DNA of 64,000 bases from Alphaproteobacteria bacterium (GTDB lineage: Bacteria; Pseudomonadota; Alphaproteobacteria; Rs-D84), in assembly GCA_017502865.1 (NCBI GenBank), contig JAFVUD010000005.1:144007-208006 (forward strand), in the 5' to 3' direction. The position numbers and the translations under genes were made by a program. Shown here one piece after another: positions 7,362 through 54,199 of the stretch. The stretch's first letter is position 1, and every line of letters starts with the position of its first letter. Under the pieces are notes generated by a model. It saw only the letters and a program-made list of their open reading frames with translations, did no database searches and had not been told where the DNA came from.

Positions 7362-7450
7362 ACCAAAAAACCGCCAAAATCCGCCTATTTTACGCCTTTT
7401 TTGCAAACAAACTATACATAATCCACCAACACCAAACATACCATCCGCAA

Positions 7451-7483: not shown

Positions 7484-7506
7484 TAATTAAATCAATTTGT
7501 CACAAA

Positions 7507-8067
7507 TTACTTTTTAGTCTTTGTAATCTTTTTGATTTTTGAAATCTGACCAGACGCAATTTTAGTCAAATTTTTGATGCCTTTTTCCAATTCGCTATCT
7601 TCTACTTCGCCTGTTTTTACAGGTTCCACAGCCGAACAGCAATGCGGACATTTTGTTGCAGAATTACTAATCGACATCGTGCAATATGGACACGCATGTG
7701 TGTTCGCAGGTTTCTTGCTACGCATTTTATTAACCGTACGCACAAACAAGAATATCGCAAACATAGTAATAAAGAAACTAACCACAGAATTCAGGAACAG
7801 CCCCATATTCAATGTTGTCGCACCTGCTGCCTGGGCGGCTGCAATTGTTTCATAATGCCCACCCGATGGATTATTCAACACAAAGAACCACTGGGAAAAA
7901 TCAACCCCACCTATCAACAACCCAATCGGCGGCATAATAACATCTTTTACCAGTGAATTTACAACACCGGTCATAACACTACCTACGATGATACCGACAG
8001 CCATGTCGATAGCATTGCCACGTTCCACAAATGCGCGGAATTCTTTTAATAAATTGGTCTTAGCCAT
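7507..8067 (-). CDS. mscL: large-conductance mechanosensitive channel MscL with C-terminal CxxC...CxxC extension
   Basis: N-terminus LKEFRAFVERGNAIDMAVGIIVG...PPIGLLIGGVDFS is canonical MscL. About 60 extra C-terminal residues contain CPYC...CPHCC. Confidence 0.85.
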   Translation of the reverse strand: MAKTNLLKEFRAFVERGNAIDMAVGIIVGSVMTGVVNSLVKDVIMPPIGLLIGGVDFSQWFFVLNNPSGGHYETIAAAQAAGATTLNMGLFLNSVVSFFITMFAIFLFVRTVNKMRSKKPANTHACPYCTMSISNSATKCPHCCSAVEPVKTGEVEDSELEKGIKNLTKIASGQISKIKKITKTKK

Positions 8068-15410: not shown

Positions 15411-15438
15411 AAAAAACGCCCCATTCGGGGCATTTTTT
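15411..15438. terminator. bidirectional terminator between rnhA and 15437-16774
   Basis: AAAAAACGCCCC-ATTC-GGGGCATTTTTT. Confidence 0.8.
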
Positions 15439-34618: not shown

Positions 34619-34646
34619 TTAAAAAACGCCCCGTTTGGGGCGTTTT
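34619..34646 (-). terminator. terminator after the giant repeat gene
   Basis: AACGCCCC-AAAC-GGGGCGTT followed by TTTTTT on the minus strand. Confidence 0.8.
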
Positions 34647-34649
34647 GTT

Positions 34650-37600
34650 TTACTTCCAGTAACTTGGGATACTTGAATAATCCGTCAAGCCTGTCGAATT
34701 ATAATACGTGTACTGCCAACCCGGATTTGACCAGATTTGGTATAAATATTTACCATTAATCTTGGCCGACGGTCCACGCAACGCTGGGCAATATGCAAAT
34801 GTATAGTAGAACATATAACTTGCATAACTACCACTTATGTTACCAAACAGGTTTGCTGGAATCGCTGCCAATTTGTCACAACTATAGAATGTTCGATAAA
34901 ACATTGAGTATGCTGGCGTTCCACTCAAACCACCAAACAGATTTTCCGGTATAGTGGTCAGATTGTCACAGTCATTAAATGTGTTATTGAACATGTACTG
35001 CGCCGGTGTGCCCTTGATACCCGCAAACAAACCTGCTGGAATCGTTGTCAAACCATCACAATTACTGAACGTTCCTTCAAACATATATGTTGCTGGTGCC
35101 CCTGAAATGCCGGCAAACAAACCTGCTGGGATTGTTGTCAGACCCGAAGAAGCAAAGGTATACATGAACATATTTGACGCTGGTTTTCCTGTAATACCCG
35201 CAAACAAACCTGCTGGAACTGTCTTCAAGCTAGAACAGCCACTAAAGGTATAATCAAACATATTTGATGCTGGTACCCCTGAAATACCTGCGAACAGATC
35301 TTCTGGAACAGCTGTCAGCTTTTTACAACCATTAAATGTATTTGCAAACATATATTGTGCTGGTTTCCCTGAAAGACCCGCAAACAAGTCTTCTGGGATT
35401 GTTGTCAAATTATCACAACCTTCAAAAGTCCCTTCAAACATGTACTTTGCTGGTGCCCCCTTGATACTTGCAAACAAACCTGCTGGCACTGTAACCAAGT
35501 TGTCACAGTTATTAAATGTATCCTGGAACATGTTTGTTTCTGGTGCTCCCTTGATACCTGCGAACAAGCCTTCTGGGATTGACTTAATCGCTGTTCCAGC
35601 GAACGCATTCTTAAACATTGACTTTGTTGGTTCACCTGTAATACCTGCGAACAAACCTTCTGGGATTGCCGCCAGCTTAGAACAGTTATTAAATACATTC
35701 TGCAACATATAGTCTGCCGCATCACCCTTGACACCTGCAAACAATTCTTCTGGAATTGCTGTCAAGCTGGAACAGCCGCTAAATGTAGAGTCAAACATAT
35801 ACTTTGCCGGCGCCCCACTGATACCTGCGAACAAGTCCGATGGAATTGCCTTCAGGCTGGTACAATCCTGGAATGTCTGCTTAAACATATTCTGGACTGG
35901 TGCCCCCTGGACATTCGCAAACAGACCCTCTGGCAATGTTGTCAATCCATTACAGTTGCTAAATGTTGCTTCAAACATACTTGATGCTGGTGCACCCGAA
36001 ATGCCTGCGAACAAGCCCGCTGGCACAACTGTCAGCCTGTCACAATCATAAAATGTCTGCTTGAACATATTTGCCGCTGGTGCCCCCTTGATACTTGCAA
36101 ACAAACCTTCTGGCAATGTTGCCAAGTTATAGCATCCATAGAACGTCTGATAGAACAATGATTCCGCTGGTGCCCCTGAAATGCTTGCAAACAAACCTTC
36201 TGGAACAGACCGCAATGCGGAACAACCATAGAATGTTCCATTGAACAGGTGTTCAACCGGTGCCCCAGAAATGTTTGCGAACAAACCTTCTGGAACTTCT
36301 GTCAAATTATAGTTCCCTTCAAATGTCTGATAGAACATATATGGACGTGGTGCCCCCTTAACCCCTGCAAACAAATCTGCCGGAACTGTCTTCAAAGACG
36401 CATCCGCAAATGTCTGATAGAAACTTGGCTGGCTACCATCGGCCAATGTTGGGAACACATCCCCCAACTGGCCTGTCACAGACGCAACACGTGTAAATTT
36501 CACTGTTGCGGTCTTGTCATTGGTGCTATATGCTGTCGCCAAACCTGCAACCTTAACATTATACGCAGCAGACTTTGCATACATGTGATTATACGATTTC
36601 AAACTTGTATCTGTACGTTCAATCACACTGGATGAACCATCACCCCAATCAACATAGAACGTACCCTTTGCCGACAACGAAATCGTCACATCTGATGTAT
36701 TGGTTGTTGTGTATTCAAACGCCCAATCATCAACACATGCCTGTGCACCCCAAATTGCTGGCATCATGACACCCGTTTCACAGTTATTATCTGTCAAACC
36801 GGTACAACCTGTGTACATATCACCAACCTGGGCTGATGTTGCGTTTGGCCAAATTTCATACAAGAATTTACCACCCGATTTAACAGATGTACCTGTCAAA
36901 CCTGAACATCCCTGGAACGTTTGTACAAACATATTGCTTGTGGCCGACCCTGACAATGTACCTGCAAAAACATTCGATATGTCGCCTTTCATGTTCTGAC
37001 AGCCAAAGAATGTCTGATAGAACATATAACTTGCTGGTGCACCGTTTAATGTACCAAACATACCAGACAGTTCTGCTTCTTCCAACCCAGAACAATTATA
37101 GAATGTTTGCTGGAACATATAACTTGCTGGGGCACCTGAAATACCGGCGAACAATGGCCCACCAATACCCGTCAAACCAGAACAGTTATAGAATGTTTGA
37201 TAGAACATATAACTTGCTGGCGCCCCTTTGATACCTGCGAACAGACCCGCTGGGATTTCACCTGTCAAACCATAACAATTATAGAATGTCCGATAGAACA
37301 TATATTGACGTGGTGTGCCACTTATCCCGCTGAACAATGTTGCTGGGATTTCACCTGTCAAACTAGAACAGTTATAGAATGTCTGATAGAAGCTTGGCTG
37401 GCTGCCATTAGACAACGTTGGGAAGATTTCACCCAAACTACCCTTTACCCCCGCTGTAGCGGTACTGAATGAAATTGCTGCTGTTGAATACGATGTATTA
37501 TACGCTGTTGCCAACCCCGCCAATTTAACAGTATACACACCCGACTTGTTATACGAATGACTATAATAAGTGCTATATGTATCTGTCTTATTTATAACCT

Positions 37601-40600
37601 GTGTGTAACCATCACCCCAATCGACATAGAACGTACCAGCCGCTGCGATATAGAATGAATAGCTATACGTATTGGTTGTAGTCAGTTCTAATGGCCAGTA
37701 GTCCAAGCATACCGGACCACCCCAACTTAATGGGACCTGGTCTTCTGAACCACATCTCATCCCTGTCAGGCCCACTGCACCTTCATACACCCCACCAATA
37801 TGGTCGGTTGTTGCATCTGGCCAGATATTATACAAATATTCACCGCCAGCACGCACAGTATTACCCGTCAAATTGCGGCAATTAGCGAACATATAGGCAA
37901 ACATATTTGTTGCCGCATTACCAGACAATGCCCCAATAAAGTTAGCAGGGATTTCGCCTGTCAAACCAGAACAGTTATAGAATGTCTGATAGAACATATA
38001 CTGTGCTGGTGTGCCGCTGATTCCTGCAAACAATGCACCACCAATACCCGACAATCTGTTACATCCATAGAATGTCTGATAGAACATATACGCACGTGGC
38101 TGCCCCGAAATACCGGCAAACAAGTCCGCTGGGATTTCACCGGATAAACCACTACAGCCATTGAACGTCCGATAGAACATATACGCACGTGGTTGCCCCG
38201 AAATACCTGCGAACAAGTCCGCTGGGATTTCATCATAGATATTATTTGCCCCATAGAACGTCTGATAGAAGCTTGGCTGGCTGCCATCAGCCAATGTTGG
38301 GAATATCGCACCCAAACTGCCCGACAGTTTTGTCAAAGAACCTGTATTGCTAAACGAAATCGTAGCCAATTCATCATCGGTATTATATGCCGTTGCCAAA
38401 CCGCCCATTTTAATCGTATATGTATTTGCACGGCGATACGAATGTGAATGACCTGTCCGTGATGCATCTGTCTTTTCGATTACATCAACCTTGCCATCGC
38501 CCCAACTGATATAGTATTTACCAGCCGCCGCCAAATAAACTGTCATCGAAGACACATTGGTTGTCGCCGTTTCAAATGCCCAATCAGAAAAATCAACATC
38601 CGAAACGTCTTCACATGCGGTCATATCTGCTGGGATATTGGCCACATCTTCCAACTGGGTATCACCACAATACATGGTCTTCATATACGATGGGTCCCAA
38701 ATATTGTACAGATACTGTTCACCTGTCTGGGCCGACGTGCCACTTAATGATGTGCAACGTCCAAACGTACCATAGAACATATCTGTTGCTGCTGTCCCTG
38801 AAATCCCCGCAAACAAGCCTGCTGGGATTTCGCCTGTCAATCCTGTACAGCCCCAGAATGTTTGTTCAAACATATATGGTGCCGGGGTGCCTTCAATACC
38901 TGCGAACAAGTCCGCTGGGATTGGGCCTTCTAACCCTGTACAATCTGCAAATGTACGTGTGAACATATCCTGGGCTGGTGCTCCCTTAATTCCACTGAAC
39001 AATGTTGCTGGAATTGTTCCGGTCAATCCTGAACAGCCTTCAAATGTCCCCATAAACATCCCATACGATGGGGCACCCTGGATTCTTGCGAACAATGTCG
39101 CTGGGATTGATCCTGTCAACCCTGAACAACCCTTGAATGTTTCACGGAACAGTTCAGCTGATGGCTGTGCATACAAATCTTCAAACAGATCTGCTGGGAT
39201 TGAACCTGTCAAGCCAGAACAACCCATGAATGTTTGATAGAACTTCTTGCTTTCTCCATCAATGCCGCCCATTGCCAACATATTTCTTGGGAACAATTGT
39301 TCTGGGATTTCACCCTTCAAATTCTTGCAGTTATAGAATGTTCTATAGAAGTTTGGCGATGGAATCAATACACCCACAACCGATGGCATAACTGGGAACA
39401 ATTCACGGAAAGACCCCTCAATCTTAGCCAAGTTATAGTTCGATTCAAAACTAATCGTTGGAACCGTGGCACCCCCAACATATCCTACCGCTTCACCTGA
39501 TATTTTGATTTTGTATTCACCCGCTTTGTCATACTTATGTGAAAATACCAGTTCATCTACACTATCATGCGTCACAGTGTCAAATGTACCATCACCCCAA
39601 TCAACACCGAAAACACCCGATGCATTCATACGGAATTCAAATGATGTCGTATCTGGTGTTGTTGTTGCGATAAACTTTGGTTCGCCCAGTCCTGTCTGGC
39701 CCAAACCACCCCAGTTTTCTGGGATTGTCGCATAATCATCCAACTTATTACTGTGCATAAATGAATATGTCAATGCATCTGGCCAGATTTCATACAAATA
39801 CTTACCACCCTTACCCTTAGCAGATGGCCCTGCCAAATCAGACATGCTAAAGAATGTATAGAAGAACATACCTAATTCTGCAGAACCTTCGATACCTGCA
39901 AACAGGCCATCCCCAATACCACTTAATCTATCATCTTCGATAAATGTAAATCCAAACATACCCAATGCTGGGGCCCCTTCAAGATTACGGAACAACCCAC
40001 CCGGGATTTCGCCAGACAATTGTGTGCAGCCCGCAAAAGTACCTAAGAAACAACCAACGCTTGGTGCACCCTTAACACCCTTGAACAAATCTTCTGGAAT
40101 TGTGCCAGACAAGCCAAAACTGGCCCCAAATGTACCTGCAAATGCCAATTCACCCGGTGCACCATTCAGGTTTCCAAACAAAGATTCTGGAATTGTTCCT
40201 GTCAAGCCTTCACCCTTAAAGATATTTACATCTGGGCCATTATTCACCAATTCAATTATGTCAATCCCACTGCCGGCAAATGTACCCAAATACTGTGCCG
40301 CCATTGGACGACCAGATATACCTGCAAACAATTTCGCTGGGATGCGACCTTCCAAATATGGCATAGCCGCAAAAGTCAATGCAAAAGCGGCTTCTTTTGC
40401 CTGGCCTTTTAAGCCTGAAAACAAAGTCGATGGCAATTCGCCCTTGAACCCGGATACCGCAAATGTGCCCAAGAACGCCCCACGTTCCGGTGCACCACGC
40501 AAATTAGCATACAATTTTGCTGGTATTGAACTTTCTACAAGTGGCGTTAACAAGAAAGTACCTGCATTCATCGCATATGATGGATGGCCGGTCAAACCTG

Positions 40601-41462
40601 CAAATAATTTTTCTGGAACAGATTTCAAACCAGAAAGCGCAAAAGTCCCCGTGAACATCAATGGGGATGGCTGACCATAAACACGGCTGAACAATCTTTC
40701 TGGAATAATACCATCCCAATTCATGGCCCCTGCGAAAGTCAGCAAGAAACTTGGGTTATCGCCATTTTCCAGCGTTGGGAAAACCGAACCCAAACTGCCA
40801 TCGATATGTGCAATACGATCTGAATCTGTTACAAAAGAAATGGTGATACCTTCTGGTGCAATCTGTAAATTATCAAACGCATGTTCATCAAAATCAACGA
40901 TAAAGCGTTGCAGGGAATTAATAATTGGGTCAACATCCATATATGCATAGCCTGTGGCACGGCCACCAAAGCGAACTACATATTTACCTGGTGTTGCATA
41001 ACTGTGGTTATATGGCATAAATTCTGTGTTATCACGCACAATTGTTTCAACCGTACCATCACCCCAGTCAACCATAAATGTCCCCGCAGCCCCCAGGATA
41101 AACCCAAACGATTCTGCATTTTCGGTGGTAGTAACCGAGAATGGCCATTCTTCATAGACCAGTTCATTAACCGCCTGTTCTGTGACTGTAATATCAGCAA
41201 TCTGATTCGTTGCATATTCACCGGCACCGTATCTTGATGTCACTTCGCCATTCAATATTTCATTGGCTACGTCAACCGCAGTCAGCAGATATTCCATATT
41301 TGCCACCTGGCGTGGATTACGCAACTTGGCATTATATGGCACTTCCACCCCGATACGATTCGCAATCATGTTATGTACATACTCTACATTTGCGATCTGT
41401 GCAGCATGCGCAGCAAATGCAAAAAATGCACCAAAAACAACGGTTAACAGTTTCTTTAACAT
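34650..41462 (-). CDS. giant secreted repeat protein made of five concatenated PKD-like + 30-aa-repeat family units
   Basis: 2270 aa from the ATG at 41462 (MLKKLLTVVFGAFFAFAAHA). Five WGDG...H.Y domains, dozens of LFAGI.GAPA..MF..TF..C..LT.IP repeats, and five YLY.IW terminal motifs. Terminators lie on both sides. Confidence 0.85.
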   Translation of the reverse strand: MLKKLLTVVFGAFFAFAAHAAQIANVEYVHNMIANRIGVEVPYNAKLRNPRQVANMEYLLTAVDVANEILNGEVTSRYGAGEYATNQIADITVTEQAVNELVYEEWPFSVTTTENAESFGFILGAAGTFMVDWGDGTVETIVRDNTEFMPYNHSYATPGKYVVRFGGRATGYAYMDVDPIINSLQRFIVDFDEHAFDNLQIAPEGITISFVTDSDRIAHIDGSLGSVFPTLENGDNPSFLLTFAGAMNWDGIIPERLFSRVYGQPSPLMFTGTFALSGLKSVPEKLFAGLTGHPSYAMNAGTFLLTPLVESSIPAKLYANLRGAPERGAFLGTFAVSGFKGELPSTLFSGLKGQAKEAAFALTFAAMPYLEGRIPAKLFAGISGRPMAAQYLGTFAGSGIDIIELVNNGPDVNIFKGEGLTGTIPESLFGNLNGAPGELAFAGTFGASFGLSGTIPEDLFKGVKGAPSVGCFLGTFAGCTQLSGEIPGGLFRNLEGAPALGMFGFTFIEDDRLSGIGDGLFAGIEGSAELGMFFYTFFSMSDLAGPSAKGKGGKYLYEIWPDALTYSFMHSNKLDDYATIPENWGGLGQTGLGEPKFIATTTPDTTSFEFRMNASGVFGVDWGDGTFDTVTHDSVDELVFSHKYDKAGEYKIKISGEAVGYVGGATVPTISFESNYNLAKIEGSFRELFPVMPSVVGVLIPSPNFYRTFYNCKNLKGEIPEQLFPRNMLAMGGIDGESKKFYQTFMGCSGLTGSIPADLFEDLYAQPSAELFRETFKGCSGLTGSIPATLFARIQGAPSYGMFMGTFEGCSGLTGTIPATLFSGIKGAPAQDMFTRTFADCTGLEGPIPADLFAGIEGTPAPYMFEQTFWGCTGLTGEIPAGLFAGISGTAATDMFYGTFGRCTSLSGTSAQTGEQYLYNIWDPSYMKTMYCGDTQLEDVANIPADMTACEDVSDVDFSDWAFETATTNVSSMTVYLAAAGKYYISWGDGKVDVIEKTDASRTGHSHSYRRANTYTIKMGGLATAYNTDDELATISFSNTGSLTKLSGSLGAIFPTLADGSQPSFYQTFYGANNIYDEIPADLFAGISGQPRAYMFYRTFNGCSGLSGEIPADLFAGISGQPRAYMFYQTFYGCNRLSGIGGALFAGISGTPAQYMFYQTFYNCSGLTGEIPANFIGALSGNAATNMFAYMFANCRNLTGNTVRAGGEYLYNIWPDATTDHIGGVYEGAVGLTGMRCGSEDQVPLSWGGPVCLDYWPLELTTTNTYSYSFYIAAAGTFYVDWGDGYTQVINKTDTYSTYYSHSYNKSGVYTVKLAGLATAYNTSYSTAAISFSTATAGVKGSLGEIFPTLSNGSQPSFYQTFYNCSSLTGEIPATLFSGISGTPRQYMFYRTFYNCYGLTGEIPAGLFAGIKGAPASYMFYQTFYNCSGLTGIGGPLFAGISGAPASYMFQQTFYNCSGLEEAELSGMFGTLNGAPASYMFYQTFFGCQNMKGDISNVFAGTLSGSATSNMFVQTFQGCSGLTGTSVKSGGKFLYEIWPNATSAQVGDMYTGCTGLTDNNCETGVMMPAIWGAQACVDDWAFEYTTTNTSDVTISLSAKGTFYVDWGDGSSSVIERTDTSLKSYNHMYAKSAAYNVKVAGLATAYSTNDKTATVKFTRVASVTGQLGDVFPTLADGSQPSFYQTFADASLKTVPADLFAGVKGAPRPYMFYQTFEGNYNLTEVPEGLFANISGAPVEHLFNGTFYGCSALRSVPEGLFASISGAPAESLFYQTFYGCYNLATLPEGLFASIKGAPAANMFKQTFYDCDRLTVVPAGLFAGISGAPASSMFEATFSNCNGLTTLPEGLFANVQGAPVQNMFKQTFQDCTSLKAIPSDLFAGISGAPAKYMFDSTFSGCSSLTAIPEELFAGVKGDAADYMLQNVFNNCSKLAAIPEGLFAGITGEPTKSMFKNAFAGTAIKSIPEGLFAGIKGAPETNMFQDTFNNCDNLVTVPAGLFASIKGAPAKYMFEGTFEGCDNLTTIPEDLFAGLSGKPAQYMFANTFNGCKKLTAVPEDLFAGISGVPASNMFDYTFSGCSSLKTVPAGLFAGITGKPASNMFMYTFASSGLTTIPAGLFAGISGAPATYMFEGTFSNCDGLTTIPAGLFAGIKGTPAQYMFNNTFNDCDNLTTIPENLFGGLSGTPAYSMFYRTFYSCDKLAAIPANLFGNISGSYASYMFYYTFAYCPALRGPSAKINGKYLYQIWSNPGWQYTYYNSTGLTDYSSIPSYWK

Positions 41463-41520
41463 ATTCCCACCTTTCTTTATGATAACCACTGTACTAAATC
41501 ATACGAAATCTACACAAGCA

Positions 41521-41550
41521 AAAAATTTAAACGCCCCGTTTGGGGCGTTT
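41521..41550 (-). terminator. terminator after rho
   Basis: AAACGCCCC-AAAC-GGGGCGTTT followed by AAATTTTT on the minus strand. Confidence 0.7.
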
Positions 41551-41553
41551 TAT

Positions 41554-42822
41554 TTATTGATTCATGGAACTGAAAAAGTCCGCATTTGTCTTGGTCAACC
41601 GCAATTTATCCAGCAAGAATTCCATCGCTTCCAACGTTCCCATTGGATTTATAATGCGACGCAAGACATACATCTTGGACAGATATTCTTTCCCGACCAG
41701 CAAATCTTCTTTACGTGTTCCAGATTTAGTAATATCAATCGCCGGATACACACGTTTATCAGACAATTTACGATCCAGGATAATTTCACTGTTCCCTGTA
41801 CCTTTAAATTCTTCAAAGATAACTTCGTCCATTTTCGACCCTGTATCCACCAACGCAGTTGCAATAATGGTCAATGAACCGCCACCTTCGATATTACGTG
41901 CCGCCCCAAAGAAGCGTTTTGGACGTTGCAACGCATACGCATCAACGCCACCGGTCAACACTTTACCACTGGATGGCACACATGTATTATATGCACGCCC
42001 CAAACGTGTAATAGAATCTAACAAGATAACAACATCCTGTCCTGCTTCGACCAAACGCTTGGCTTTTTCAATAACCATTTCGGCAACCTGAATATGTCGT
42101 GCCGCAGGTTCATCGAATGTAGATGATATAACTTCGCCTTTAACGCTGCGTTGCATATCCGTCACTTCTTCTGGACGTTCATCAATCAACAATACGATTA
42201 ATTTCACATCTGGATAGTTTGTTGCAATACTGTGTGCAATGTTTTGCAGCATAACTGTTTTACCGGTACGTGGTGGTGCCACAATCAGTGAACGTTGCCC
42301 TTTACCAGTTGGTGAAATCAAATCGATAACACGTGCCGACAAATTGCGACCTTTGTCCTTGTCATCTGGCACTTCCATTTTCAACTGTTCATCTGGATAC
42401 AGCGGTGTCATATCATCGAACGACACACGATGTTTCAACTTTTCTGGATTATCGCCGTTAACACGTTCAATTGTTTCCAACGCAAAATAACGTTCTGTTT
42501 CTGCGGCCGGTGCCTGAATCTGTCCTTCGACATAGTCACCCGTTTTCAACCCATACTTTTTAATCAAATTTGGTGACACATACAAATCATCTGGTCCCGC
42601 CAGATAATTAGATTCTGGTGCACGCAAGAATCCAAACCCATCCTGCATACGTTCCAGCACCCCGTCACCAATCAGTGTGACCTTTTTATCCGCAGCAAAC
42701 ACACGCATAACTGCAAAACGCAGTTGTTGCACATTTAATTGCGCCGGATTTTCAATACCCATATCTTCTGCCATTTTCAGCAGTTGCTGTGGCGATTTCG
42801 CCTTTAATTCATTTATATGCAT
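41554..42822 (-). CDS. rho: transcription termination factor Rho
   Basis: [16 protein letters not shown]-terminal domain, Walker A motif PPRTGKT, and RNA-binding and ATPase motifs. Start taken at the ATG at 42822. Confidence 0.95.
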
Positions 42823-42942: not shown

Positions 42943-45027
42943 TTACTTCCAGTTATCTGGGATATTCGCATAGTCTTTTAATCCCGTTGCGCCGTTATAT
43001 GTATTCGCATCCCCAGATGGTGTGAACACTTCATACAAGAATTTATCAGCCGTCGTAAATGTACCATCTTCATTTTCGGTCACAACCGTCATCTTGGCAG
43101 AATCACTGGCCAATTTGGTTGCATTGTTAAATGTATTACTGAACATTCCCGACACCCAATTACCCGTAATATTGCCAAATATAGGATGCCCACTGGTACC
43201 GGTTGCCGCATCATAACCAATATTTATCAGACCCGTACTGTCAGCAAATGTGCTATTAAACATATTCTGTGCTGGTTCGCCCGAAATTCCCGCAAACAAT
43301 CCCTTTGGAATATTTTTAATATTCCATGTTGTACTGAATGTGCTACTGAACATATTTTTAGCTGGTGCCCCAACAATCCCTGCAAACAAACCTTCTGGCA
43401 AATCACCTACATTATTCCAATGGAATGTTCCACTAAACATCCCCTCGGCCGGTTCACCACGAATCCCCGCAAACAATTTCGCTGGCACAGTATTCACACC
43501 AGAATCCTGGAATGTACCCTGGAACATATATTCCAACGGGCGCCCCTCAATCCCACGGACATAATTGCCATTGTCATCATATTCTGTGAACAGATTTTCT
43601 GGAATATTATTCCCCATTCCCCCGGTCTGACAGAACGTATACGCAAATGCACGTCCCATATTATAATGCCATGTTATACCCGAAAACAAATCTGCTGGAA
43701 TGGGTCCACCCAATCTGCGGCACTGCTGGAAAGTACCTTCGAACATCCCATATGCCCCTGGCCCCTTAATCCCAGCAAACAGTCCACTTGGCAACTTCCC
43801 TTGAATTCCCGAAAAACCAAATGTTCCATGGAACATCTTGTGTGCAGGTGCGCCTTCGATACCCGCAAACAATTCCGCCGGAATCGAGCCAGTCAGTCTA
43901 GTATGCTGACTCCAACAACTACCATCTGGTCTATCATCTGGTGCAGACAAACAGGCAAAAGTAGAATGGAACATCATTGGTTTTGGTGCCCCCTTGATGC
44001 CCGCAAAGAAATCTTTATCCAACGGTCCAATTAAATTACGTGCAGAATCAAATGTCCCATAGAACAAACCTGTTGTTGGTGCACCACTAATCTTTGCAAA
44101 CAATTTTGGTGGTATCTGCCCCGATAAACTGTCGCAATTTCTAAATGTATGCATAAACATACCTGTTGTCGGGCGGCCGCTGATACCCGCAAAGAAATCT
44201 TCTGGAATCGCCCCATCCAATTCATAACAACCATCAAACATTTCACGGAACATATATGCCTTGTCCGCTTGGCCTGTCAATCCGGTCAAGAAACCATCTG
44301 GAATTGGACCAATCAAATTCTTGCACCCTTTACAGAAACCATAAAAGCTGGGTTGACTGCCATCGGCCAATGTTGAAAAAACCGCACCCAATGAATTATA
44401 AATTTTATACAGGTTTTCTGGCGTGCCGATTTTAATAGATGGAATTACCCCACTAACTTCATCCGCCATCAGTGTAACGGCCCCTTCGACATAGCCAGCA
44501 CCACCGGTTGAATTATATTCAGTTGGTGTACCCGTTAATTTAATATAGTGTGCTTCGGCCGTATCATATGTATGTGAATATGTGACCTGGTCTGTGGTAT
44601 CCTGGGTAAATGTTTCGTTGGTACCATCACCCCATTTAATAGTAAATGTACCCTTGGCTGCGATTTTAATTTCAAAATATGTTGTATCGGTTGTTGTACG
44701 GAATGTCAAACCACGCACATCAATCAAATCAACAACTGCTTTATCCGTTGCCTCCTTATCCGCCGCCAGCATAGTTGCCAACGGATCTTCGGCATAGTCA
44801 CTGATATCAATACTGTTCACGGTCCAGTTTGTTTCATCCATCGCATGCAGCAGATATTTCATATTTGCCGCAGCCATGGTACTGCTGACCTCGTCATTAT
44901 ATGGTAAAAAGAATCCCCATTCGGCCTGAATAGCCTTGTGAATATAATCCAGGTTTGCGACCACTGCGGAATCGGCCGTCGCCACCACACCGCACGACAC
45001 CATCAACGCAAACAACAATTTTTTCAT
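42943..45027 (-). CDS. secreted PKD-like + 30-aa-repeat family protein (694 aa)
   Basis: Signal peptide, VANLDYIHKAI...ANMKYLLHAMDETN head, IKWGDG...YSHTY domain, LFAGI.G.P...MF..TF repeats, and C-terminus KFLYEVF...IPDNWK. Confidence 0.85.
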   Translation of the reverse strand: MKKLLFALMVSCGVVATADSAVVANLDYIHKAIQAEWGFFLPYNDEVSSTMAAANMKYLLHAMDETNWTVNSIDISDYAEDPLATMLAADKEATDKAVVDLIDVRGLTFRTTTDTTYFEIKIAAKGTFTIKWGDGTNETFTQDTTDQVTYSHTYDTAEAHYIKLTGTPTEYNSTGGAGYVEGAVTLMADEVSGVIPSIKIGTPENLYKIYNSLGAVFSTLADGSQPSFYGFCKGCKNLIGPIPDGFLTGLTGQADKAYMFREMFDGCYELDGAIPEDFFAGISGRPTTGMFMHTFRNCDSLSGQIPPKLFAKISGAPTTGLFYGTFDSARNLIGPLDKDFFAGIKGAPKPMMFHSTFACLSAPDDRPDGSCWSQHTRLTGSIPAELFAGIEGAPAHKMFHGTFGFSGIQGKLPSGLFAGIKGPGAYGMFEGTFQQCRRLGGPIPADLFSGITWHYNMGRAFAYTFCQTGGMGNNIPENLFTEYDDNGNYVRGIEGRPLEYMFQGTFQDSGVNTVPAKLFAGIRGEPAEGMFSGTFHWNNVGDLPEGLFAGIVGAPAKNMFSSTFSTTWNIKNIPKGLFAGISGEPAQNMFNSTFADSTGLINIGYDAATGTSGHPIFGNITGNWVSGMFSNTFNNATKLASDSAKMTVVTENEDGTFTTADKFLYEVFTPSGDANTYNGATGLKDYANIPDNWK

Positions 45028-45041: not shown

Positions 45042-45287
45042 CTATTCTTCTACATGTGCCACAGATTTTGGCAATGGTTGGGTTGCCACATTTAACGATC
45101 CTGTCACGTCGTACGTACCGGCCATGGTCTGATTGGCATTTTCGGAAACACTGACCTTGTCTTCATCAACATATTTACGTGTATTCGCATCCACTTCATC
45201 TACATAGTTTTGTGATGGAATATTCGGTGCCGCAATCGCCGCCCCTGACATCAACGCCAACACTGAAAAAACAAGGATTTTTTGCAT
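45042..45287 (-). CDS. small secreted protein, EYV-head / VxTxPLP-tail family
   Basis: MQKILVFSVLALMSGAAIAAPNIPSQNYVDEV...NQTMAGTYDVTGSLNVATQPLP. Lies 14 nt upstream of 42943-45027. Confidence 0.6.
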   Translation of the reverse strand: MQKILVFSVLALMSGAAIAAPNIPSQNYVDEVDANTRKYVDEDKVSVSENANQTMAGTYDVTGSLNVATQPLPKSVAHVEE

Positions 45288-45380: not shown

Positions 45381-47483
45381 TTATTTCCACAATTCTGGGA
45401 TATTCGCATAGTCTGTTAATCCCGTTGCACCGTTATATGTATTTGCATCCCCAGATGGTGTGAACACTTCATACAAATACTTTATCGCCGAAGACGTCGT
45501 TCCATCTTCATTTTCAGTTATAACCGTCATCTTGGCAGAATCACTGGCCAATTTGGTTGCGTTACTAAACGTATTGCTGAACATTCCCGACACCCAACTC
45601 CCCGTAATATTACCAAATATTGGATGCCCACTGGTACCGGTTGCCGCATCATAACCAATATCTACCAACGATTTATTATTCGAAAACGTGCCATTAAACA
45701 TATTCTTGGCCGCTGGTCCAGAAATCTTGGCAAACAACCCCTTTGGAATTTTTGTTGTGCTTGACCAAGCATCACCGGCACTAAATGTACCACTGAACAT
45801 AGACTCTGCCGGTTCCCCTTCGATACCATCAAAGAACCCTTCGGGAATATCACCAACACTATTCCAGTGGAACGTGTTGGCAAACATAGCTTTGGCCGGT
45901 TTTCCACGAATACCTGCGAACAATTTCGCTGGCAAATTACTTGCACCACTATCCGTCCATGTACCATTGAACATTTCTGCGGACGGTGCCCCCTCTATCC
46001 CACGGACATAATTACCGTCTTCGTCATATTCTGTGAACAGGTTTTCTGGAATATTTCCGCCCGCCCATGTCTGACAGAACGTCAACGCAAACGCACGTGA
46101 CATATCCGGCGACCATGTTATCCCTGCAAAGAAATCTTCGGGAATTTGTCCTCCCATACCACGGGCCTGTTGGAATGTGGCTTCAAACATACCGGGCGCC
46201 CCAGGTCCCTTGATGCCTGCAAACAATCCTGCTGGATACCCACCTGTATGCCCCGAAAATGCAAATGTAGAATGGAACATTTTGTACGCAGGGGCCCCTT
46301 CAATTTTACCAAACAATTTTGCTGGAATTGGGTTTTTCATCGACATTTTTGACCAACATTCACCATCTGGCAAATTAACACATCCAAATGTCCCCAGGAA
46401 CATCATCGGTTTTGGTGCACCACCAATATTTGCAAACAACTGGTCCGACAAAGCACCCGTCAACCCACGTGCCCCGTTAAATGTTTCATAGAACAATGCC
46501 AATGTAACATCACCGTTCAAACCACCAAACACGTCGGCCGGAATCCCACCCGTCAATGATTTACAGTTATAAAATGTCTGCATAAACTGGGCAGTTGTTG
46601 GACGACCTGTTATGCCCGCAAACATACCTGCTGGGATTTCACCATTTAACTTATAACAATTCAAGAACATACGACGAAATTGGTACGCTTTATCCGATTC
46701 GCCCGTAATCCCAGCCAACAAATTTGCTGGAATCGGCCCAACCAGGTTCGTACATCCTTCACAAAATGTATTAAAGCTTGGCTGACTGCCATCAGCCAAC
46801 GTTGGGAAAACCGAACCCAACGAATTATAAATCTTATACAAATTGGCTGGTGTAGCAATTTTAATAGTTGGCGTCGCCCCACTAACTTCACCTAAACTTT
46901 CATCTACACCACCATCTGAATATTGAACAATAATATCTCCGCCGGTCGAATTATACTCGGTCGCCTTGCCTAACAATTTGATATAGTGTGCTTCGGCCTT
47001 ATCATACGTATGCGAATACGTTTTTTGTTCTGTGGTATCGTGGGTAAAAGTTTCATTAACGCCGTCGCCCCATTTAATTGTAAATGTACCCTTGGCTGCG
47101 ATTTTAATTGAAAATTCCGTTGTATCAGTCGTCGTACGGAATGTTAAACCACGCACATCAATCAGGTCAACAACTGCGACATCTGTCGCATTGGTGTCTG
47201 CGGCACGCATTGTCGCCAATGGATCTTCGGCATAGTCACTGATGTCTTCACTGTTCACGGTCCAGTTTGTTTCGTCCATCGCATGCAACAGATATTTCAT
47301 ATTTGCCGCCGCCATTGTACTGCGAACCTCTTCATTCCATGGCAAAAAGAATCCCCACTCGGCCTGGATTGCGTTATGAATATATTCCAAATTTGCGATT
47401 TTGCCGGACCAAGCGGCCGAAATCACCATAAAACAAGACAAAAAAGCGACACATAACTTTTTAATCACGCTAAAATCCCCCAT
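45381..47483 (-). CDS. secreted PKD-like + 30-aa-repeat family protein (700 aa), tandem paralog of 42943-45027
   Basis: Same architecture. N- and C-terminal ~150 aa are nearly identical to the neighbour and the middle has diverged. C-terminus is ...IPELWK. Confidence 0.85.
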   Translation of the reverse strand: MGDFSVIKKLCVAFLSCFMVISAAWSGKIANLEYIHNAIQAEWGFFLPWNEEVRSTMAAANMKYLLHAMDETNWTVNSEDISDYAEDPLATMRAADTNATDVAVVDLIDVRGLTFRTTTDTTEFSIKIAAKGTFTIKWGDGVNETFTHDTTEQKTYSHTYDKAEAHYIKLLGKATEYNSTGGDIIVQYSDGGVDESLGEVSGATPTIKIATPANLYKIYNSLGSVFPTLADGSQPSFNTFCEGCTNLVGPIPANLLAGITGESDKAYQFRRMFLNCYKLNGEIPAGMFAGITGRPTTAQFMQTFYNCKSLTGGIPADVFGGLNGDVTLALFYETFNGARGLTGALSDQLFANIGGAPKPMMFLGTFGCVNLPDGECWSKMSMKNPIPAKLFGKIEGAPAYKMFHSTFAFSGHTGGYPAGLFAGIKGPGAPGMFEATFQQARGMGGQIPEDFFAGITWSPDMSRAFALTFCQTWAGGNIPENLFTEYDEDGNYVRGIEGAPSAEMFNGTWTDSGASNLPAKLFAGIRGKPAKAMFANTFHWNSVGDIPEGFFDGIEGEPAESMFSGTFSAGDAWSSTTKIPKGLFAKISGPAAKNMFNGTFSNNKSLVDIGYDAATGTSGHPIFGNITGSWVSGMFSNTFSNATKLASDSAKMTVITENEDGTTSSAIKYLYEVFTPSGDANTYNGATGLTDYANIPELWK

Positions 47484-47489: not shown

Positions 47490-47711
47490 TTATTCTGCGG
47501 CAGTATTTGCAACAGATGTTGGCAATGGCTGTGTTGGCACATCAAAAGTGCCCGTCACAGTATATGTTCCTGCCATTGTCTGGTTGGCTGATGCCGATGT
47601 ATCAACCTTGGTCGCAATAGATTCTTCTACATATTGCGTACCTGCCAAATCTGCCCATGCAGCCGGCATAAAACAGCACATAAACAACGCAAAAAACAAT
47701 GTATTTTTCAT
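47490..47711 (-). CDS. small secreted protein, EYV-head / VPTxPLP-tail family
   Basis: MKNTLFFALFMCCFMPAAWADLAGTQYVEESI...NQTMAGTYTVTGTFDVPTQPLP. Lies 6 nt upstream of 45381-47483. Confidence 0.6.
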   Translation of the reverse strand: MKNTLFFALFMCCFMPAAWADLAGTQYVEESIATKVDTSASANQTMAGTYTVTGTFDVPTQPLPTSVANTAAE

Positions 47712-48778: not shown

Positions 48779-51700
48779 TTAGAAGCGGTAAGAACCTGAG
48801 ACTTTAATATTATGCAACTGGATGGCATCGTTGTATTGATATCTGTAATCAACACCAATTTGAATGCCGGTTGCGGAAATCAGTTCAAAACCACCACCAA
48901 TATTTGCCCACAATGGATCAATATCCAATGCATAGTCGGTGAACGAATGGGCCGGACCAAATTTATATTGAACCTGGTCTGGGGCACCCAGAACATCATA
49001 TTCGACACCAATCGATGCATATGGTCTGATTTGGAACCATGCTGTTGGATAGATGCGTTTCTGGGCCGTTAATGTGTACCCAGGGGTCAACATCAAATAG
49101 CCATCTGATTCCATATTCATGTAATCGCCACTGCCGGCGGTTTCATCAACACTGAAACCAAAATTATAACCAACACGTGCATACAGATTTCCAACGATAT
49201 ACTGGTTCAACCAATCGTGCATCAACCCCCATTCAGATGTCAATGCCAACGCCATACCATCACCATCGATTGTATCCATGAAATTCATGTTTCTGTCTGT
49301 ATCTAACATATGGATATCCAAGAACGCATTTCCATACGCACGCACAGAATTAGTCAATGTTTTAGCCAAATAACCGCCCAGGCCGATATTTGTATCTGTG
49401 ACGGACACAGAAACATTTCCTTGTTCTGTGATGGCACCATAACTTAAATCCATAGAATCTGAATTATCGCTGGACATATGTGAAACACGACCTGTCAACC
49501 CCAGAATCAGTGTTTCAGATTCCTGCCAGTCAAATCCACCGGCAACACTGAAACGATTTCCACCAACACGTTTGTTATCTGTCACATTCTGGCGGAACAT
49601 ACCATAGTCAACATCAACCCATGCTTTTTTCAAACTGCGGTTTCTGTTCCAGATAAATTCATCCATCATGCGATCTTCGAAATCACGGAACGATGTATGT
49701 TCATTCAACATAACTGCACCCGCAATTTGTTCGATTTCACGTGGCTGAACCAATCTGCTGAATCGTGCCAATGGTGCACCTTCGGCATTGGCAACATAGT
49801 GTTCCATACGATTGTACAATTCATTTGCCAATTTAGACATATCTGTCCCTTCGAACAACAATGGAATCACTTCAATTGGCGTACTGTTAAAGAATCCCTG
49901 ATTAACCAATTGACCATCCAACAGATCGTCCAACGCACCGGCCGCCATATATTCACCATCTGTATGATCTGGTTCACGGCCAACAATTGGCTGGATACGC
50001 ATATTTTCAATCAAAACAGGGCCACCAAAGCGTGGATCAAACACGACATACAAACTGTCATTTTCACCATTTGCATCCGCATCACGAACCGAGATATACG
50101 CCGGCAATTCTTCGCCCGATTTATTATTCGCATCAATCGCATCCAGATAGTTAAAGCATTTTGAACCATCTGCATTACAGAACATAACTTCCAGATTGCG
50201 AACCTTGGCCAATGCATCAAATTCTTCGATACCATCTTTGGCGTTTAACAACCAAATCGCAGTACCCTGGTCAACGGCATCAAATATATTAATACCGATT
50301 TGTGAATCCGCCAACTGAACTTCTTTGTTACCCAAATTCAGCCCAGAATCATATACTTTACCCGATATAAATTTGCCATTAACCGAAATCATTGGTTCTG
50401 CATCGGCTGCATTTGTGATATCACCCAGTGTATCATCTTCGGCCAGGCTGACGGTTGCCCAATAATTCTTGGCACTGGAATTCATTGTGGTACCATCTGC
50501 ATATTTCAAGATTGCAACATTCAATCGGCTGTTTTCATCAAATGTATAATTACCACCAATACTCATTTGTTCCAGACCGATAAAGTCAACCCCACCTGAA
50601 ACATCACCACCAACCGACACATCCATCCAGTTTGCATATGGCGACGCAACAAATGCTAAATCAACTGCATCTATGCTGCCAGAAACATCAATATCACTGC
50701 TGTTCACAACCATTGTCCCAGATTTCTGGTCAATCGCCCCAACATTCATATTAGATGTATTTATAACATAATCAGATGCCGCCACATTTACATCACGACT
50801 GGCCAATGTACCTGCATAATTTTGATATAATGTACCATCGGTTGTAAATGGTGTTGCCAAATCCAATCCAGCCCCAGACAACTGAATCATACCATCGTTC
50901 ATGGCCAATGAATTCATTGTTATAAACCCATTACCCGAACCAATATACAACGTACCATTATTCGCAACATCTGCGAAATCAGCAGATTCCTGGGCAAATA
51001 TTGCCAAAGAACCGCTGTTTTCCAAATTCTGCGACGCAAACGATTTCGCATTTACCATCACGCCGGCACCATCTGCCACAGAAACATTACCAACAACATT
51101 GAATAAATCTGTAATGTTATATGAAACCGTATTTTCATCTGCGACAAAATTACCACCAATGTTCATACTGGCCGCCTGAACACTTGATTCATCGGCTGTC
51201 AAATTCAGCATACCATTTTTAGCAGTACCCTGGTTCAAATCGCCTGCAACGCTAATATCGCCACCGACGATTGTGCGTTCCGCATCAATATTTGCCCCAC
51301 CCCCAGACACTGTCAAACCATATGAAACATCGAATTGTTTTGCATCAACCGACACTAAACCACCCGTTGATGTAATTGAATTCGCAGACACATTGTTGGC
51401 ATTTGCTGTAAACGCACCACTGTTTGTCACATTTTCAACAGACACCGCATTTACATTCCCCTGGCCTAACAAAGTTGTCAAACCTGTATTTGTAATATCC
51501 TGGGCGGTTATCATTGTACCCGATGCATACAGCGATCCACCAACCGTTGTATCATTTTTGATATCAACCAATTTATTCGCCACCAGGTTCAATTCACCAC
51601 CTGCATCAATCAAGCCAGAAACATTGATATTATTCGCAGATTTCAATGTTAACCCGTCACGTGTTGCCGCCATAACTGTAATACCACCGGCAACATCAAT

Positions 51701-54088: not shown

Positions 54089-54199
54089 TTTTTTCTTTTT
54101 CTGTTTTATTTCCAATCCGATTGTGTTTATATTATACCGCAAAATGAATTTAATGCAAAGGTAAACTGTGCATAAACTCATTATTATTTATCAAAGTAA

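What the first reader, a model, noticed from the sequence alone, without database searches (positions are those of the whole stretch)
34650..41462. The 2270-aa protein is five complete family units fused head-to-tail; the junctions retain the motif that ends stand-alone paralogs
Stand-alone family members (15437-16774, 42943-45027, 45381-47483) have the layout PKD-like WGDG...SH.Y domain, then 30-aa repeats, then G.YLY[EQN][IV][WF]...D[YV]..[IM]P..W[KR]-stop. In the giant ORF this whole layout occurs five times. WGDG is at about aa 141, 631, 996, 1291 and 1615 of the 2279-aa ORF numbering. The terminal motifs are YLYEIWP...IPENWG (~aa 564-594), YLYNIWDP...IPADMT (~926-956), YLYNIWPDA...VPLSWG (~1218-1257), FLYEIWPNA...MPAIWG (~1542-1581) and YLYQIWSN...IPSYWK-stop. 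Approximate nt boundaries of the units are 39711, 38622, 37719 and 36747. Only the first unit keeps the signal peptide and the ANMEYLL head. Unit 3 contains two adjacent, nearly identical repeats (EIPADLFAGISGQPRAYMFY[RQ]TF), indicating recent internal duplication. This looks like gene fusion of a tandem paralog array through loss of stops and intergenic DNA, or a modular expansion mechanism.
Basis: seen in the sequence. Interest (0 to 1): 0.65.

Follow-up and report, generated by a model that had tools for sequence, protein, structure and literature searches.

The report
Five-module secreted repeat protein gene
A gut bacterium with a very small genome (Candidatus Enterousia) carries one real 6.8-kb gene whose secreted protein repeats the same three-part module five times; this is most likely growth of a surface-protein family by duplication of internal modules, which is an ordinary process.

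Summary
The ORF at 34650-41462 (-) encodes a signal peptide, one N-terminal head, and five modules. Each module is a PKD-like beta-sandwich with WGDG, then 30/31-aa LRR-like repeats, then a YLY.IW...IP..W cap. A profile of single-module relatives matches the protein five times from the PKD start to the cap, and matches the head only once.

It is not an assembly artefact. The identical protein sits on 5 contigs, the longest exact internal repeat is 33 nt, and a 57%-identical ortholog at the same locus has the same five units.

Fusion of neighbouring genes by loss of stops is poorly supported. Junction linkers are 7-12 aa and carry no trace of a signal peptide or head. Across 214 relatives, 71 of 74 internal junctions read W-G, often with a Cys pair, whereas 122 of 125 terminal caps end W-K/R. 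Units 3-5 resemble each other most, and junctions 3-4 and 4-5 share a derived insertion. Three other proteins show within-protein unit clades (95-96% bootstrap).

The family is uncharacterised, has about 7,900 cluster representatives, and in every hit carrying a source name comes from uncultured Alphaproteobacteria. A role as an adhesin-like fibre is inferred, not shown. Interest is low to moderate.

The parts
34650..41462 (-). Whole gene: 2270 codons plus the stop codon (34650-34652). One continuous ORF.
   Evidence: The identical product is found on 5 contigs.
41403..41462 (-). Sec-type signal peptide, aa 1-20 (MLKKLLTVVFGAFFAFAAHA|AQ). It has no lipobox Cys.
   Evidence: Read from the sequence. 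The cleavage site is inferred from the AHA-A pattern.
41148..41402 (-). N-terminal head, aa 21-105 (IANVEYVH...ANMEYLL...). It is predicted to be three short helices and occurs once only.
   Evidence: Head HMM hit at aa 21-103, E = 7e-32. The family profile matches positions 1-108 only here. Helices H25-36, H55-70 and H90-100 appear in the AF2 model of paralog p445.
39708..41147 (-). Unit 1, aa 106-585: PKD-like domain (WGDG at aa 133), about 10 repeats, cap YLYEIW...IPENW-G.
38619..39707 (-). Unit 2, aa 586-948: linker GLGQTGLGEPK, PKD-like domain (WGDG at aa 622), about 7 repeats of 31 aa, cap YLYNIW...IPADM-T.
37719..38618 (-). Unit 3, aa 949-1248: PKD-like domain (WGDG at aa 987), about 5 repeats including the two most similar neighbouring repeats, and an internal-type cap with a Cys-containing insertion (..GMRCGSEDQVPLSW-G).
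36747..37718 (-). Unit 4, aa 1249-1572: linker GPVCLDY, PKD-like domain (WGDG at aa 1282), about 6 repeats, internal-type cap (..DNNCETGVMMPAIW-G).
   Evidence: The AF2 model of the junction (aa 1126-1450) has pLDDT 93.3 and pTM 0.86.
34653..36746 (-). Unit 5, aa 1573-2270: linker AQACVDD, PKD-like domain (WGDG at aa 1606), about 19 repeats of 30 aa (90-nt period), terminal-type cap YLYQIW...IPSYWK-stop.
41529..41550 (-). Terminator-like hairpin after rho. Together with the conserved spacer and ribosome-binding site that follow, it suggests the giant gene has its own transcription unit.
   Evidence: The spacer is conserved in the ortholog locus L006.
34624..34645 (-). An identical 22-nt hairpin (AAACGCCCCAAACGGGGCGTTT) plus a T-run, 4 nt after the giant's stop codon. 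It is the likely terminator.

Best explanation
This is one genuine gene of a Candidatus Enterousia genome (order Rs-D84, Alphaproteobacteria), an animal-gut lineage with genomes below 1 Mb. Its product is exported by a Sec signal peptide. It consists of one N-terminal helical head followed by five modules: a PKD-like beta-sandwich, an LRR-like solenoid of 30/31-aa repeats, and a C-terminal cap.

The 'terminal motif' at the junctions is the structural cap of each solenoid, so any copy of a whole module carries it. The multi-module form arose mainly by duplication of internal modules together with their junctions, through unequal recombination within the gene and possibly between paralogs. It did not arise by read-through of stop codons between neighbouring genes. 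The architecture is old, because it predates the split from a 57%-identical ortholog.

Inferred, not shown: the modules are joined by short, well-packed linkers, often with a Cys pair, into a long and fairly rigid fibre. The variable repeat surfaces would bind host or partner-cell ligands, as BspA-type LRR adhesins do.
For: The gene is real:
- The identical 2270-aa product is on 5 contigs.
- A 94%-identical, 2271-aa ortholog is in an NCBI MAG.
- The longest exact repeat inside the gene is 33 nt, and unit DNA identity is about 72% or less except over short stretches.

Five modules and one head:
- Shown by the profile mapping and the junction sequences.

Age and orthology:
- P0122 (1981 aa) lies in the same SSB-paralogs-rho-giant-arginase context.
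- Units 1, 2 and 3 pair 1:1 with their P0122 counterparts at 100%, 99.5% and 84% bootstrap.

Module duplication:
- Units 3, 4 and 5 are 50-52% identical to each other, against 30-40% identity between units 1 or 2 and any other unit.
- Junctions 3-4 and 4-5 share a derived Cys-containing insertion and a C[VL]D.W linker.
- Units cluster within their own protein in P0139, P0125 and P0129 at 95%, 95.5% and 96% bootstrap.

Junction signature:
- W-G in 71 of 74 internal junctions from 52 proteins, against W-K/R in 122 of 125 terminal caps. A Cys pair occurs in 46 of 74 internal junctions against 2 of 125 terminal caps.

Structure:
- The AF2 model of p445 has pLDDT 87.3 and shows a helical head, a beta-sandwich, a solenoid and a cap.
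- The AF2 model across junction 3-4 has pLDDT 93.3 and pTM 0.86, with linker pLDDT about 90.

Repeat type:
- TIGR02167 (PARCEL) scores 41.2 bits against a cut-off of 30.
- There are weak LRR matches by fold and by profile (4r5c, E = 0.022).

Organism and lifestyle:
- The Rho neighbour is 89-98% identical to that of Ca. Enterousia and related gut MAGs.
- The reduced, probably partner-dependent lifestyle is described in PMC12306168.
Against: - The clade uniting units 3-5 across the three orthologs has only 38.5% bootstrap support. One-to-one orthology of units 4 and 5 is weak, at 46% and 33.5%.
- Units 1 and 2 are as distant from the other units as separate paralogs are, so their joining could have been an old fusion.
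- In P0131 and P0123, units are 75-99% identical to units of shorter proteins. That fits recombination or fusion between paralogs rather than strictly intragenic duplication.
- No solved structure matches with E <= 1e-3.
- Pfam LRR_5 and DUF285 do not detect the repeats.
- The export route across the outer membrane, surface location and binding function are all untested.
- Rigidity rests on one AF2 model built from a 22-sequence alignment.
Confidence: 0.68

Rival explanations
1. Gene fusion of a tandem paralog array. Five once-separate family genes were joined by deletions that removed each stop codon, the intergenic DNA, the signal peptide and the head.
For: - Family genes do occur in tandem at this locus: p700 and p694 lie just upstream of rho, and the relative has three such genes.
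- Internal caps are homologous to terminal caps.
- Units 1 and 2 are as divergent from the rest as separate paralogs are.
- In P0131 and P0123, some units are 75-99% identical to units of shorter proteins.
Against: - It requires four independent in-frame deletions of about 130 codons plus the intergenic DNA, all at the same domain boundary.
- The junctions hold no head or signal-peptide remnant and are only 7-12 aa long.
- The stereotyped W-G and Cys-pair junction is shared by 52 proteins.
- Junctions 3-4 and 4-5 are copies of each other.
- No unit is sister to a stand-alone paralog in the same genome.
- No unfused ortholog was found.
Confidence: 0.17
2. Polyprotein. The five modules are exported as one chain using the single signal peptide, then cleaved at the conserved W-G-G junctions into five single-module proteins equivalent to the stand-alone paralogs.
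For: - There is only one signal peptide for five otherwise complete modules.
- W-G(G) is nearly invariant exactly where stand-alone proteins end.
Against: - The junction is predicted to be ordered and tightly packed, with pLDDT about 90 and pTM 0.86.
- It is frequently bracketed by a Cys pair, which suggests a stapled connector rather than a cleavage loop.
- No protease domain was detected in the protein.
- Released units would lack the head that every stand-alone member keeps.
Confidence: 0.08
3. Assembly artefact. The long ORF is a collapse or chimera of several paralogous genes.
For: The gene is repeat-rich. The closest GTDB representative contig (L008) ends 1.2 kb after rho, which shows that assemblies can break in this area.
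Against: - The identical protein is on 5 contigs of up to several hundred kb.
- Orthologs at 94% and 57% identity have the same unit order.
- The longest exact internal repeat is 33 nt, and the longest match to the rest of the window is 21 nt.
- The junction sequences are unique.
Confidence: 0.02

Closest known systems
BspA-type / LRR_5 leucine-rich-repeat surface proteins (Tannerella BspA, Treponema LrrA, Trichomonas TvBspA families)
   Same: Both are secreted or surface proteins built from tandem repeats of about 23-30 aa, with an F..C..L hydrophobic core and variable exposed positions. Both form large, lineage-specific expanded families in host-associated microbes. Some long relatives of this protein carry precomputed PF13306 hits. 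The best, though weak, fold and profile matches are LRR proteins.
   Different: Pfam LRR_5 does not detect the repeats in this protein, even at E = 0.1. The period here is 30/31 aa, with a distinctive G.P..xMF..TF..C..L..IP..LF consensus. Each solenoid here is preceded by a PKD-like domain and closed by a YLY.IW...IP..W cap. No binding data exist.
PARCEL / DUF285 / TIGR02167 repeats (Roske et al. 2010, PMC2996958)
   Same: The giant passes the TIGR02167 cut-off, at 41.2 bits against 30. It shares the MF..(a/c)..F/L core, the variable hydrophilic positions, the variable repeat number and the membrane-targeting N-terminus described for PARCEL proteins.
   Different: The canonical PARCEL period is 25-26 aa with W(D/N)(T/V)SNV..M..MF. 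Here the period is 30/31 aa and only profile positions 1-12 of 26 match. The coding DNA shows no dyad symmetry. Paralog p445 falls just below the cut-off, at 29.2 bits.
Multi-LRR-domain proteins such as Slit (four capped LRR domains in series) and internalins (LRR plus Ig-like inter-repeat domain). This comparison is from my own knowledge and was not tested here.
   Same: These have several complete, individually capped solenoids in one chain joined by short linkers that contain Cys. An LRR solenoid is packed rigidly against an Ig-like domain.
   Different: There is no detectable sequence relationship. The domain order here is Ig-like then solenoid. The caps are not the Cys-rich LRRNT/LRRCT type. 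The protein is bacterial and specific to the Rs-D84 lineage.
Giant modular adhesins that grow by tandem duplication of a domain or supra-domain (for example the SiiE, LapA and Bap types). This comparison is from my own knowledge.
   Same: Length varies by whole-module gain and loss between orthologs and paralogs. There is a single N-terminal export or anchor region and a distal variable part.
   Different: The repeated element here is a three-part supra-module of about 300-700 aa, not a single Ig-like domain. No T1SS signal, autotransporter domain or sortase signal is present.

Membership tests
Rs-D84 head-PKD-30-aa-repeat-cap family (uncharacterised; defined here by profile A1) | A full-length match to the single-unit profile: head, PKD-like WGDG domain, repeats and cap. 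| tested here: met
   The head plus unit 1 match profile positions 1-458. Units 2-5 each match positions of about 109-116 to 449-459. Domain E-values are 1e-50 to 1e-114.
Rs-D84 head-PKD-30-aa-repeat-cap family | A C-terminus ending ...[IMV]P..W[KR] immediately before the stop codon. | tested here: met
   The giant ends IPSYWK-stop. Of 125 terminal caps in relatives, 122 have K or R after W, and 101 stop one residue after W.
PARCEL / TIGR02167 / DUF285 | A score above the curated cut-off of the TIGR02167 HMM. | tested here: met
   The score is 41.2 bits against a cut-off of 30 (E = 9e-11). It is reached only by summing partial matches to profile positions 1-12 of 26, and no single stretch passes. 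Pfam DUF285 was not detected.
PARCEL / TIGR02167 / DUF285 | The canonical 25-26-residue repeat period. | tested here: not met
   The period is 30 aa (90 nt) in unit 5 and 31 aa (93 nt) in units 1-4. The canonical motif is taken from PMC2996958.
PARCEL / TIGR02167 / DUF285 | Dyad symmetry (palindromic character) of the repeat-coding DNA. | tested here: not met
   Only one weak 24-nt palindrome (71% complementary) was found in 1951 nt of unit 5.
PKD domain (Pfam PF00801 / PF18911) | A score above Pfam's gathering threshold. | tested here: not met
   PF00801 scores 19.6 bits against a threshold of 23.5. PF18911 scores 13.5 bits against 27. Some relatives do carry precomputed PKD hits.
PKD domain (Pfam PF00801 / PF18911) | A beta-sandwich fold of about 90 aa containing the WGDG motif. 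| tested here: inconclusive
   AF2 models give an 8-strand all-beta domain with pLDDT of 95 or more. The PDB profile hit to PKD entry 4xed has E = 0.06, and the Foldseek match to 4xed has E = 0.43.
BspA-type LRR (Pfam LRR_5, PF13306) | Detection by the family HMM. | tested here: not met
   There was no hit at E <= 0.1 for the giant or the three paralogs.
LRR solenoid fold in general | Structural similarity to solved LRR proteins. | tested here: inconclusive
   The best Foldseek hits are the Nogo receptor and LRRTM2, with E = 0.01 and TM of about 0.2. No hit reaches E <= 1e-3. The profile hit to LRR protein 4r5c has E = 0.022.
Autotransporter, T1SS-RTX or sortase-anchored adhesins | A C-terminal beta-barrel, a C-terminal secretion signal with RTX repeats, or an LPXTG motif. 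| tested here: not met
   No such Pfam or NCBIfam hits were found. The C-terminus is the solenoid cap.

The most novel reading that the evidence does not exclude
The alternating PKD-solenoid-cap modules, joined by the conserved and often Cys-stapled W-G-G junction, may form a rigid rod whose length is set by module number. This would be a lineage-specific class of fibrous adhesin. With about 7,900 cluster representatives and versions up to 7.6 kaa, it could be the main device by which genome-reduced, probably partner-dependent Rs-D84 gut Alphaproteobacteria attach to a host or partner cell. Module gain and loss would then tune reach and specificity. The small co-located secreted proteins that precede the stand-alone members could be part of the same surface assembly.
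Probability: 0.25. Interest if true: 0.5.

Novelty: new member of a known kind. Interest (0 to 1): 0.3.

Why it matters
As protein evolution this is routine. A repeat-containing surface protein has grown by copying a whole supra-module, and the 'terminal motif at the junctions' is simply each solenoid's structural cap.

The value lies in the context. Candidatus Enterousia and the Rs-D84 order have genomes below 1 Mb and lack many biosynthetic and transport functions (PMC12306168), yet four members of this family occupy about 19% of this 64-kb window. The family is large and its fold has no close solved relative. It is therefore a reasonable first candidate for the unknown molecules that tie these bacteria to a host or partner. 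The conserved junction signature gives a simple rule for recognising multi-module members in annotation.

Tried and rejected
- **Head-cap homology.** I tested whether the head contains a cap-like element that could have mediated cap-to-head recombination. A head HMM does hit caps (i-E 1e-5 to 6e-10). The reciprocal cap HMM scores 4 bits or less on 165 heads, no better than reversed controls. hhalign gives a probability of 0.7% over 16 columns. I treat this as a shared 14-16-aa motif only and did not use it.
- **First reciprocal attempt.** This test was uninformative because the cap alignment included the last repeat.
- **Split or intermediate orthologs.** Rho-anchored synteny across GTDB genomes shows that more distant Enterousia species have no family gene downstream of rho. 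The nearest representative has a different Cys-rich ORF there. Two JGI metagenome scans returned nothing useful. A query with unit 1 alone found no relative above about 43% identity, and so no unfused unit 1.
- **Fold searches.** Foldseek against the PDB with both models gave no hit at E <= 1e-3.
- **Bootstrap run.** The Biopython bootstrap timed out and was replaced by a numpy implementation.
- **PamR match.** The NCBIfam hit to CPR_pilus_PamR scores 69 bits against a cut-off of 300 and covers only the WGDG stretch, so I rejected it as a membership claim.
- **Flanking hairpins.** The identical terminator hairpins on either side of the gene were considered as an insertion scar. In the ortholog locus the two hairpins differ in their loops, so this remains unresolved.

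Full report
**1. What is in the sequence**

The region holds one ORF on the minus strand, 34650..41489, 2279 aa from a GTG. The real start is almost certainly the ATG at 41462, giving 2270 aa. It is preceded by AAGGTGGG at a spacing of 5 nt. It is also the start used by gene callers on public contigs and by the NCBI ortholog.

The translation begins with a Sec-type signal peptide (MLKKLLTVVFGAFFAFAAHA|AQ), followed by a head of about 85 aa.

WGDG occurs five times, at aa 133, 622, 987, 1282 and 1606 in 2270-aa numbering. A cap motif of the form [YF]LY.IW...[IMV]P..[WM] also occurs five times, ending at aa 584, 947, 1247, 1571 and 2269. The last is followed by K-stop.

The three stand-alone paralogs (15437-16774, 42943-45027, 45381-47483) have one WGDG each and end ...[IM]P..W[KR]-stop.

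**2. The pattern is not a chance effect of short motifs**

I built a profile HMM from 34 single-unit relatives (alignment A1, 459 positions) and searched the giant with it. The head plus unit 1 match positions 1-458. Units 2, 3, 4 and 5 each match from about position 109-116, the first strand of the PKD-like domain, to about 449-459, the end of the cap. Domain E-values range from 1e-50 to 1e-114. Profile positions 1-108, the head, are matched only once.

BLASTP between units, and between units and paralogs, gives E-values of 1e-36 to 1e-111. The repeats have a period of 90 nt (30 aa) in unit 5 and 93 nt (31 aa) in units 1-4.

Units 2-5 lack the head as well as the signal peptide. They are modules of PKD-like domain, repeats and cap, not complete genes.

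**3. The gene is not an assembly artefact**

- The identical 2270-aa product was called on 5 contigs, in length classes from 20-50 kb up to 0.2-1 Mb.
- A 94%-identical, 2271-aa protein is present in an NCBI MAG. A 57%-identical, 1981-aa protein (P0122) has five WGDG in the same order.
- The longest exact repeat inside the gene is 33 nt, and the longest exact match to the rest of the window is 21 nt.
- Unit-to-unit DNA identity is about 72% or less except over short stretches.

Nothing here could mislead an assembler.

**4. Organism and locus**

The neighbouring rho gene finds its closest relatives in a sheep-rectum Alphaproteobacteria MAG (98%), in Candidatus Enterousia species (89-92%), and in a human-gut 'Rickettsiales' MAG (90%).

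Enterousia belongs to the uncultured order Rs-D84. Its genomes are below 1 Mb, its metabolism is strongly reduced, and a partner-dependent lifestyle has been proposed (PMC12306168).

P0122 lies in the same context as the giant: SSB, then three stand-alone paralogs of about 690 aa, each preceded by a small ORF, then rho, the five-unit gene, and the arginase-family pair. In more distant Enterousia genomes, rho is followed directly by the homolog of the 317-aa gene and the arginase pair, with no family member. The nearest GTDB representative has an unrelated Cys-rich secreted ORF there. The site downstream of rho is therefore variable, and the five-unit gene is confined to a sub-lineage in which it is already complete.

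**5. How the five units arose**

Junction anatomy is the first line of evidence. Between the cap's W and the first PKD strand (W.F..TTT) there are only 7-12 residues. That leaves no room for a terminator, ribosome-binding site, signal peptide or head.

The second line is family-wide statistics from the 210 relatives retrieved plus the 4 window proteins:

| Feature | Terminal caps (125) | Internal caps (74, in 52 proteins) |
|---|---|---|
| Residue after W | K 113, R 9, G 3 | G 71, T 2, K 1 |
| Stop one residue after W | 101 | not applicable |
| Cys pair (one just before [IMV]P..W, one in the linker) | 2 | 46 |

The internal junction is typically WGG.G. It is a conserved, specialised connector, not raw read-through.

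Third, in the giant, junctions 3-4 (..GLTGMRCGSEDQVPLSWGGPVCLDYW..) and 4-5 (..GLTDNNCETGVMMPAIWGAQACVDDW..) share a derived six-residue insertion and the same Cys spacing. Both features are absent from junction 1-2 and from all terminal caps, and both recur in P0122. These two junctions are copies of each other, which is direct evidence for duplication of a module together with its junction.

Fourth, the identities and trees agree:

- Units 3-5 are 50-52% identical to one another. Units 1 and 2 are 30-40% identical to every other unit. p445 is closest to unit 4, at 46%. p694 and p700 are 69% identical and form their own pair.
- In a neighbour-joining tree of PKD-plus-cap segments with 200 bootstraps, units 1, 2 and 3 pair with their P0122 counterparts at 100%, 99.5% and 84%.
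- In the same tree, units cluster within their own protein in P0139, P0125 and P0129 at 95%, 95.5% and 96%.
- p694 and p700 pair at 98%, and no unit of the giant is sister to a stand-alone gene of the same genome.

There are weak points. The clade of units 3-5 has only 38.5% support. In P0131 and P0123, some units are 75-99% identical to units of shorter proteins, which shows that whole modules are also gained, lost or exchanged between family members.

Taken together, expansion is modular and proceeds by unequal recombination. This is mostly intragenic for this gene, and it is ancient. Fusion by loss of stops remains possible for the first joins (units 1-2 and 2-3), but nothing specifically supports it. 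A query with unit 1 alone found no unfused ortholog.

**6. What the protein is**

Pfam sees only sub-threshold PKD matches. NCBIfam gives TIGR02167 (PARCEL repeat) at 41.2 bits against a cut-off of 30, reached by summing partial matches. It also gives a sub-threshold match of the WGDG stretch to PamR.

The AF2 model of paralog p445, built with 34 sequences, has pLDDT 87.3. It shows three short helices (the head), a low-confidence linker, an all-beta sandwich at residues 123-223, a solenoid with one short strand per 30 aa, and a cap with two short helices.

A model spanning the end of unit 3, the junction, and the start of unit 4 (aa 1126-1450, 22 junction sequences) has pLDDT 93.3 and pTM 0.86, with the linker at about 90. 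This predicts a fixed packing of cap, linker and the next PKD domain.

Foldseek finds no PDB match at E <= 1e-3. The best matches are LRR ectodomains at E of about 0.01. The sequence profile hits an LRR protein at E = 0.022 and a PKD domain at E = 0.06.

The repeats are therefore LRR-like and distantly PARCEL/BspA-like. However, they have a 30/31-aa period and no dyad symmetry in the DNA, so they do not meet the PARCEL definition.

There is no beta-barrel, RTX or sortase signal. How the protein would cross the outer membrane is unknown. The neighbouring 1800-aa ORF ends like an autotransporter, which suggests the cell does have an outer membrane.

An adhesin-like, ligand-binding role is an inference from the architecture, the signal peptide, the size and variability of the family, and the organism's lifestyle.

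**7. How common this is**

An exhaustive profile search of 1.84 billion cluster representatives found 7,906 proteins at E <= 1e-3 and 1,661 at E <= 1e-30. Every named hit comes from an uncultured Alphaproteobacteria MAG.

Two-unit proteins of 600-770 aa are very common. Among the 214 proteins scanned for caps, the numbers of proteins with one, two, three and four internal junctions are 41, 5, 1 and 5. Much larger proteins exist, 4-7.6 kaa with up to 12 WGDG, but their modules lack the cap.

The giant is thus at the upper end of the cap-retaining class but is one of many. Between the orthologs there are whole-repeat indels of 30 and 31 aa. Identity falls from the head and unit 1 (76-78%) towards the distal units (51% for unit 3, and 30-43% for units 4-5, where repeat-number differences degrade the alignment).

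**8. Verdict**

The gene is a new member of a known kind: a modular, repeat-rich secreted protein that has grown by module duplication. It belongs to an uncharacterised family specific to one lineage.

Interest is low to moderate. The point worth following up is the family as a candidate attachment apparatus of genome-reduced gut Alphaproteobacteria, together with the conserved and possibly disulfide-stapled junction.

Noticed in passing
window 47490-47711 (-), 45042-45287 (-), 16784-17995 (-); also L006 1288-1539, 3756-4010, 6223-6438: Every stand-alone family gene is immediately preceded, on the same strand, by a gene of a second small secreted family. That family has a signal peptide, a 'YV[DE]' head and a C-terminal '..MAGTY.VTGS..V.TQPLP' tail. 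The copies are 73 aa and 81 aa before p700 and p694. Before p445 there is a 403-aa version with about 12 inserted 'PTKTS.LTNDSGFIT' repeats. The giant has no such partner; rho lies upstream of it instead. Pfam finds nothing significant in these proteins.
   Followed up: partly
window 41529-41550, 34624-34645 and 15414-15435 (- strand): An identical 22-nt GC-rich hairpin (AAACGCCCCAAACGGGGCGTTT) follows both rho and the giant gene, so it brackets the giant. A variant with 3 mismatches follows p445. The chance expectation is 0 matches. In the ortholog locus L006 the two hairpins share the stem but differ in the loop. This could be a shared terminator family or a trace of how the gene was inserted.
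   Followed up: partly
L008 11401-12456; L009-L012 downstream of rho: The site downstream of rho is variable among Enterousia genomes. It holds the five-unit gene here and in L006. In the nearest GTDB representative, whose contig ends inside the gene, it holds an unrelated Cys-rich secreted ORF. In four more distant species it holds no extra gene.
   Followed up: partly
window 48779-54181 (-): An 1800-aa ORF has a signal-like N-terminus, long Gly/Asn/Thr-rich passenger-like repeats and a C-terminus ending ..SGSYRF, which is typical of an autotransporter or outer-membrane beta-barrel. It has no Pfam or NCBIfam hit at E <= 0.1. Homologs with the same ending occur next to rho in L008 and L010.
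   Followed up: no
family-wide (heads at about aa 45-60, caps about 45 aa from each unit end): The head segment 'L.sP.aa.NmkYLL' resembles the start of the cap, 'LtGPSArINGqYLY'. A head HMM hits caps in 57 or more proteins. The reciprocal HMM and hhalign do not support homology.
   Followed up: yes
window 40024-40674 (+), 41263-41877 (+), 43186-44034 (+): Long antisense ORFs of 204-282 aa lie inside the repeat-coding genes. They are probably by-products of the biased composition of the repeats. They were not examined further.
   Followed up: no
whole window; extreme at 6001-8000: GC skew is negative in every 2-kb bin, from -0.04 to -0.45, and most long ORFs are on the minus strand. The bin 6001-8000 is an outlier, with GC 0.383 and skew -0.454.
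   Followed up: no
P0131, P0144, P0076, P0114 (family members from other contigs): Near-identical units (96-99%) are shared between proteins with 2, 3 and 4 units. This suggests very recent gain or loss of whole modules between strains or paralogs. Some of it could instead be fragmentary gene calls.
   Followed up: partly
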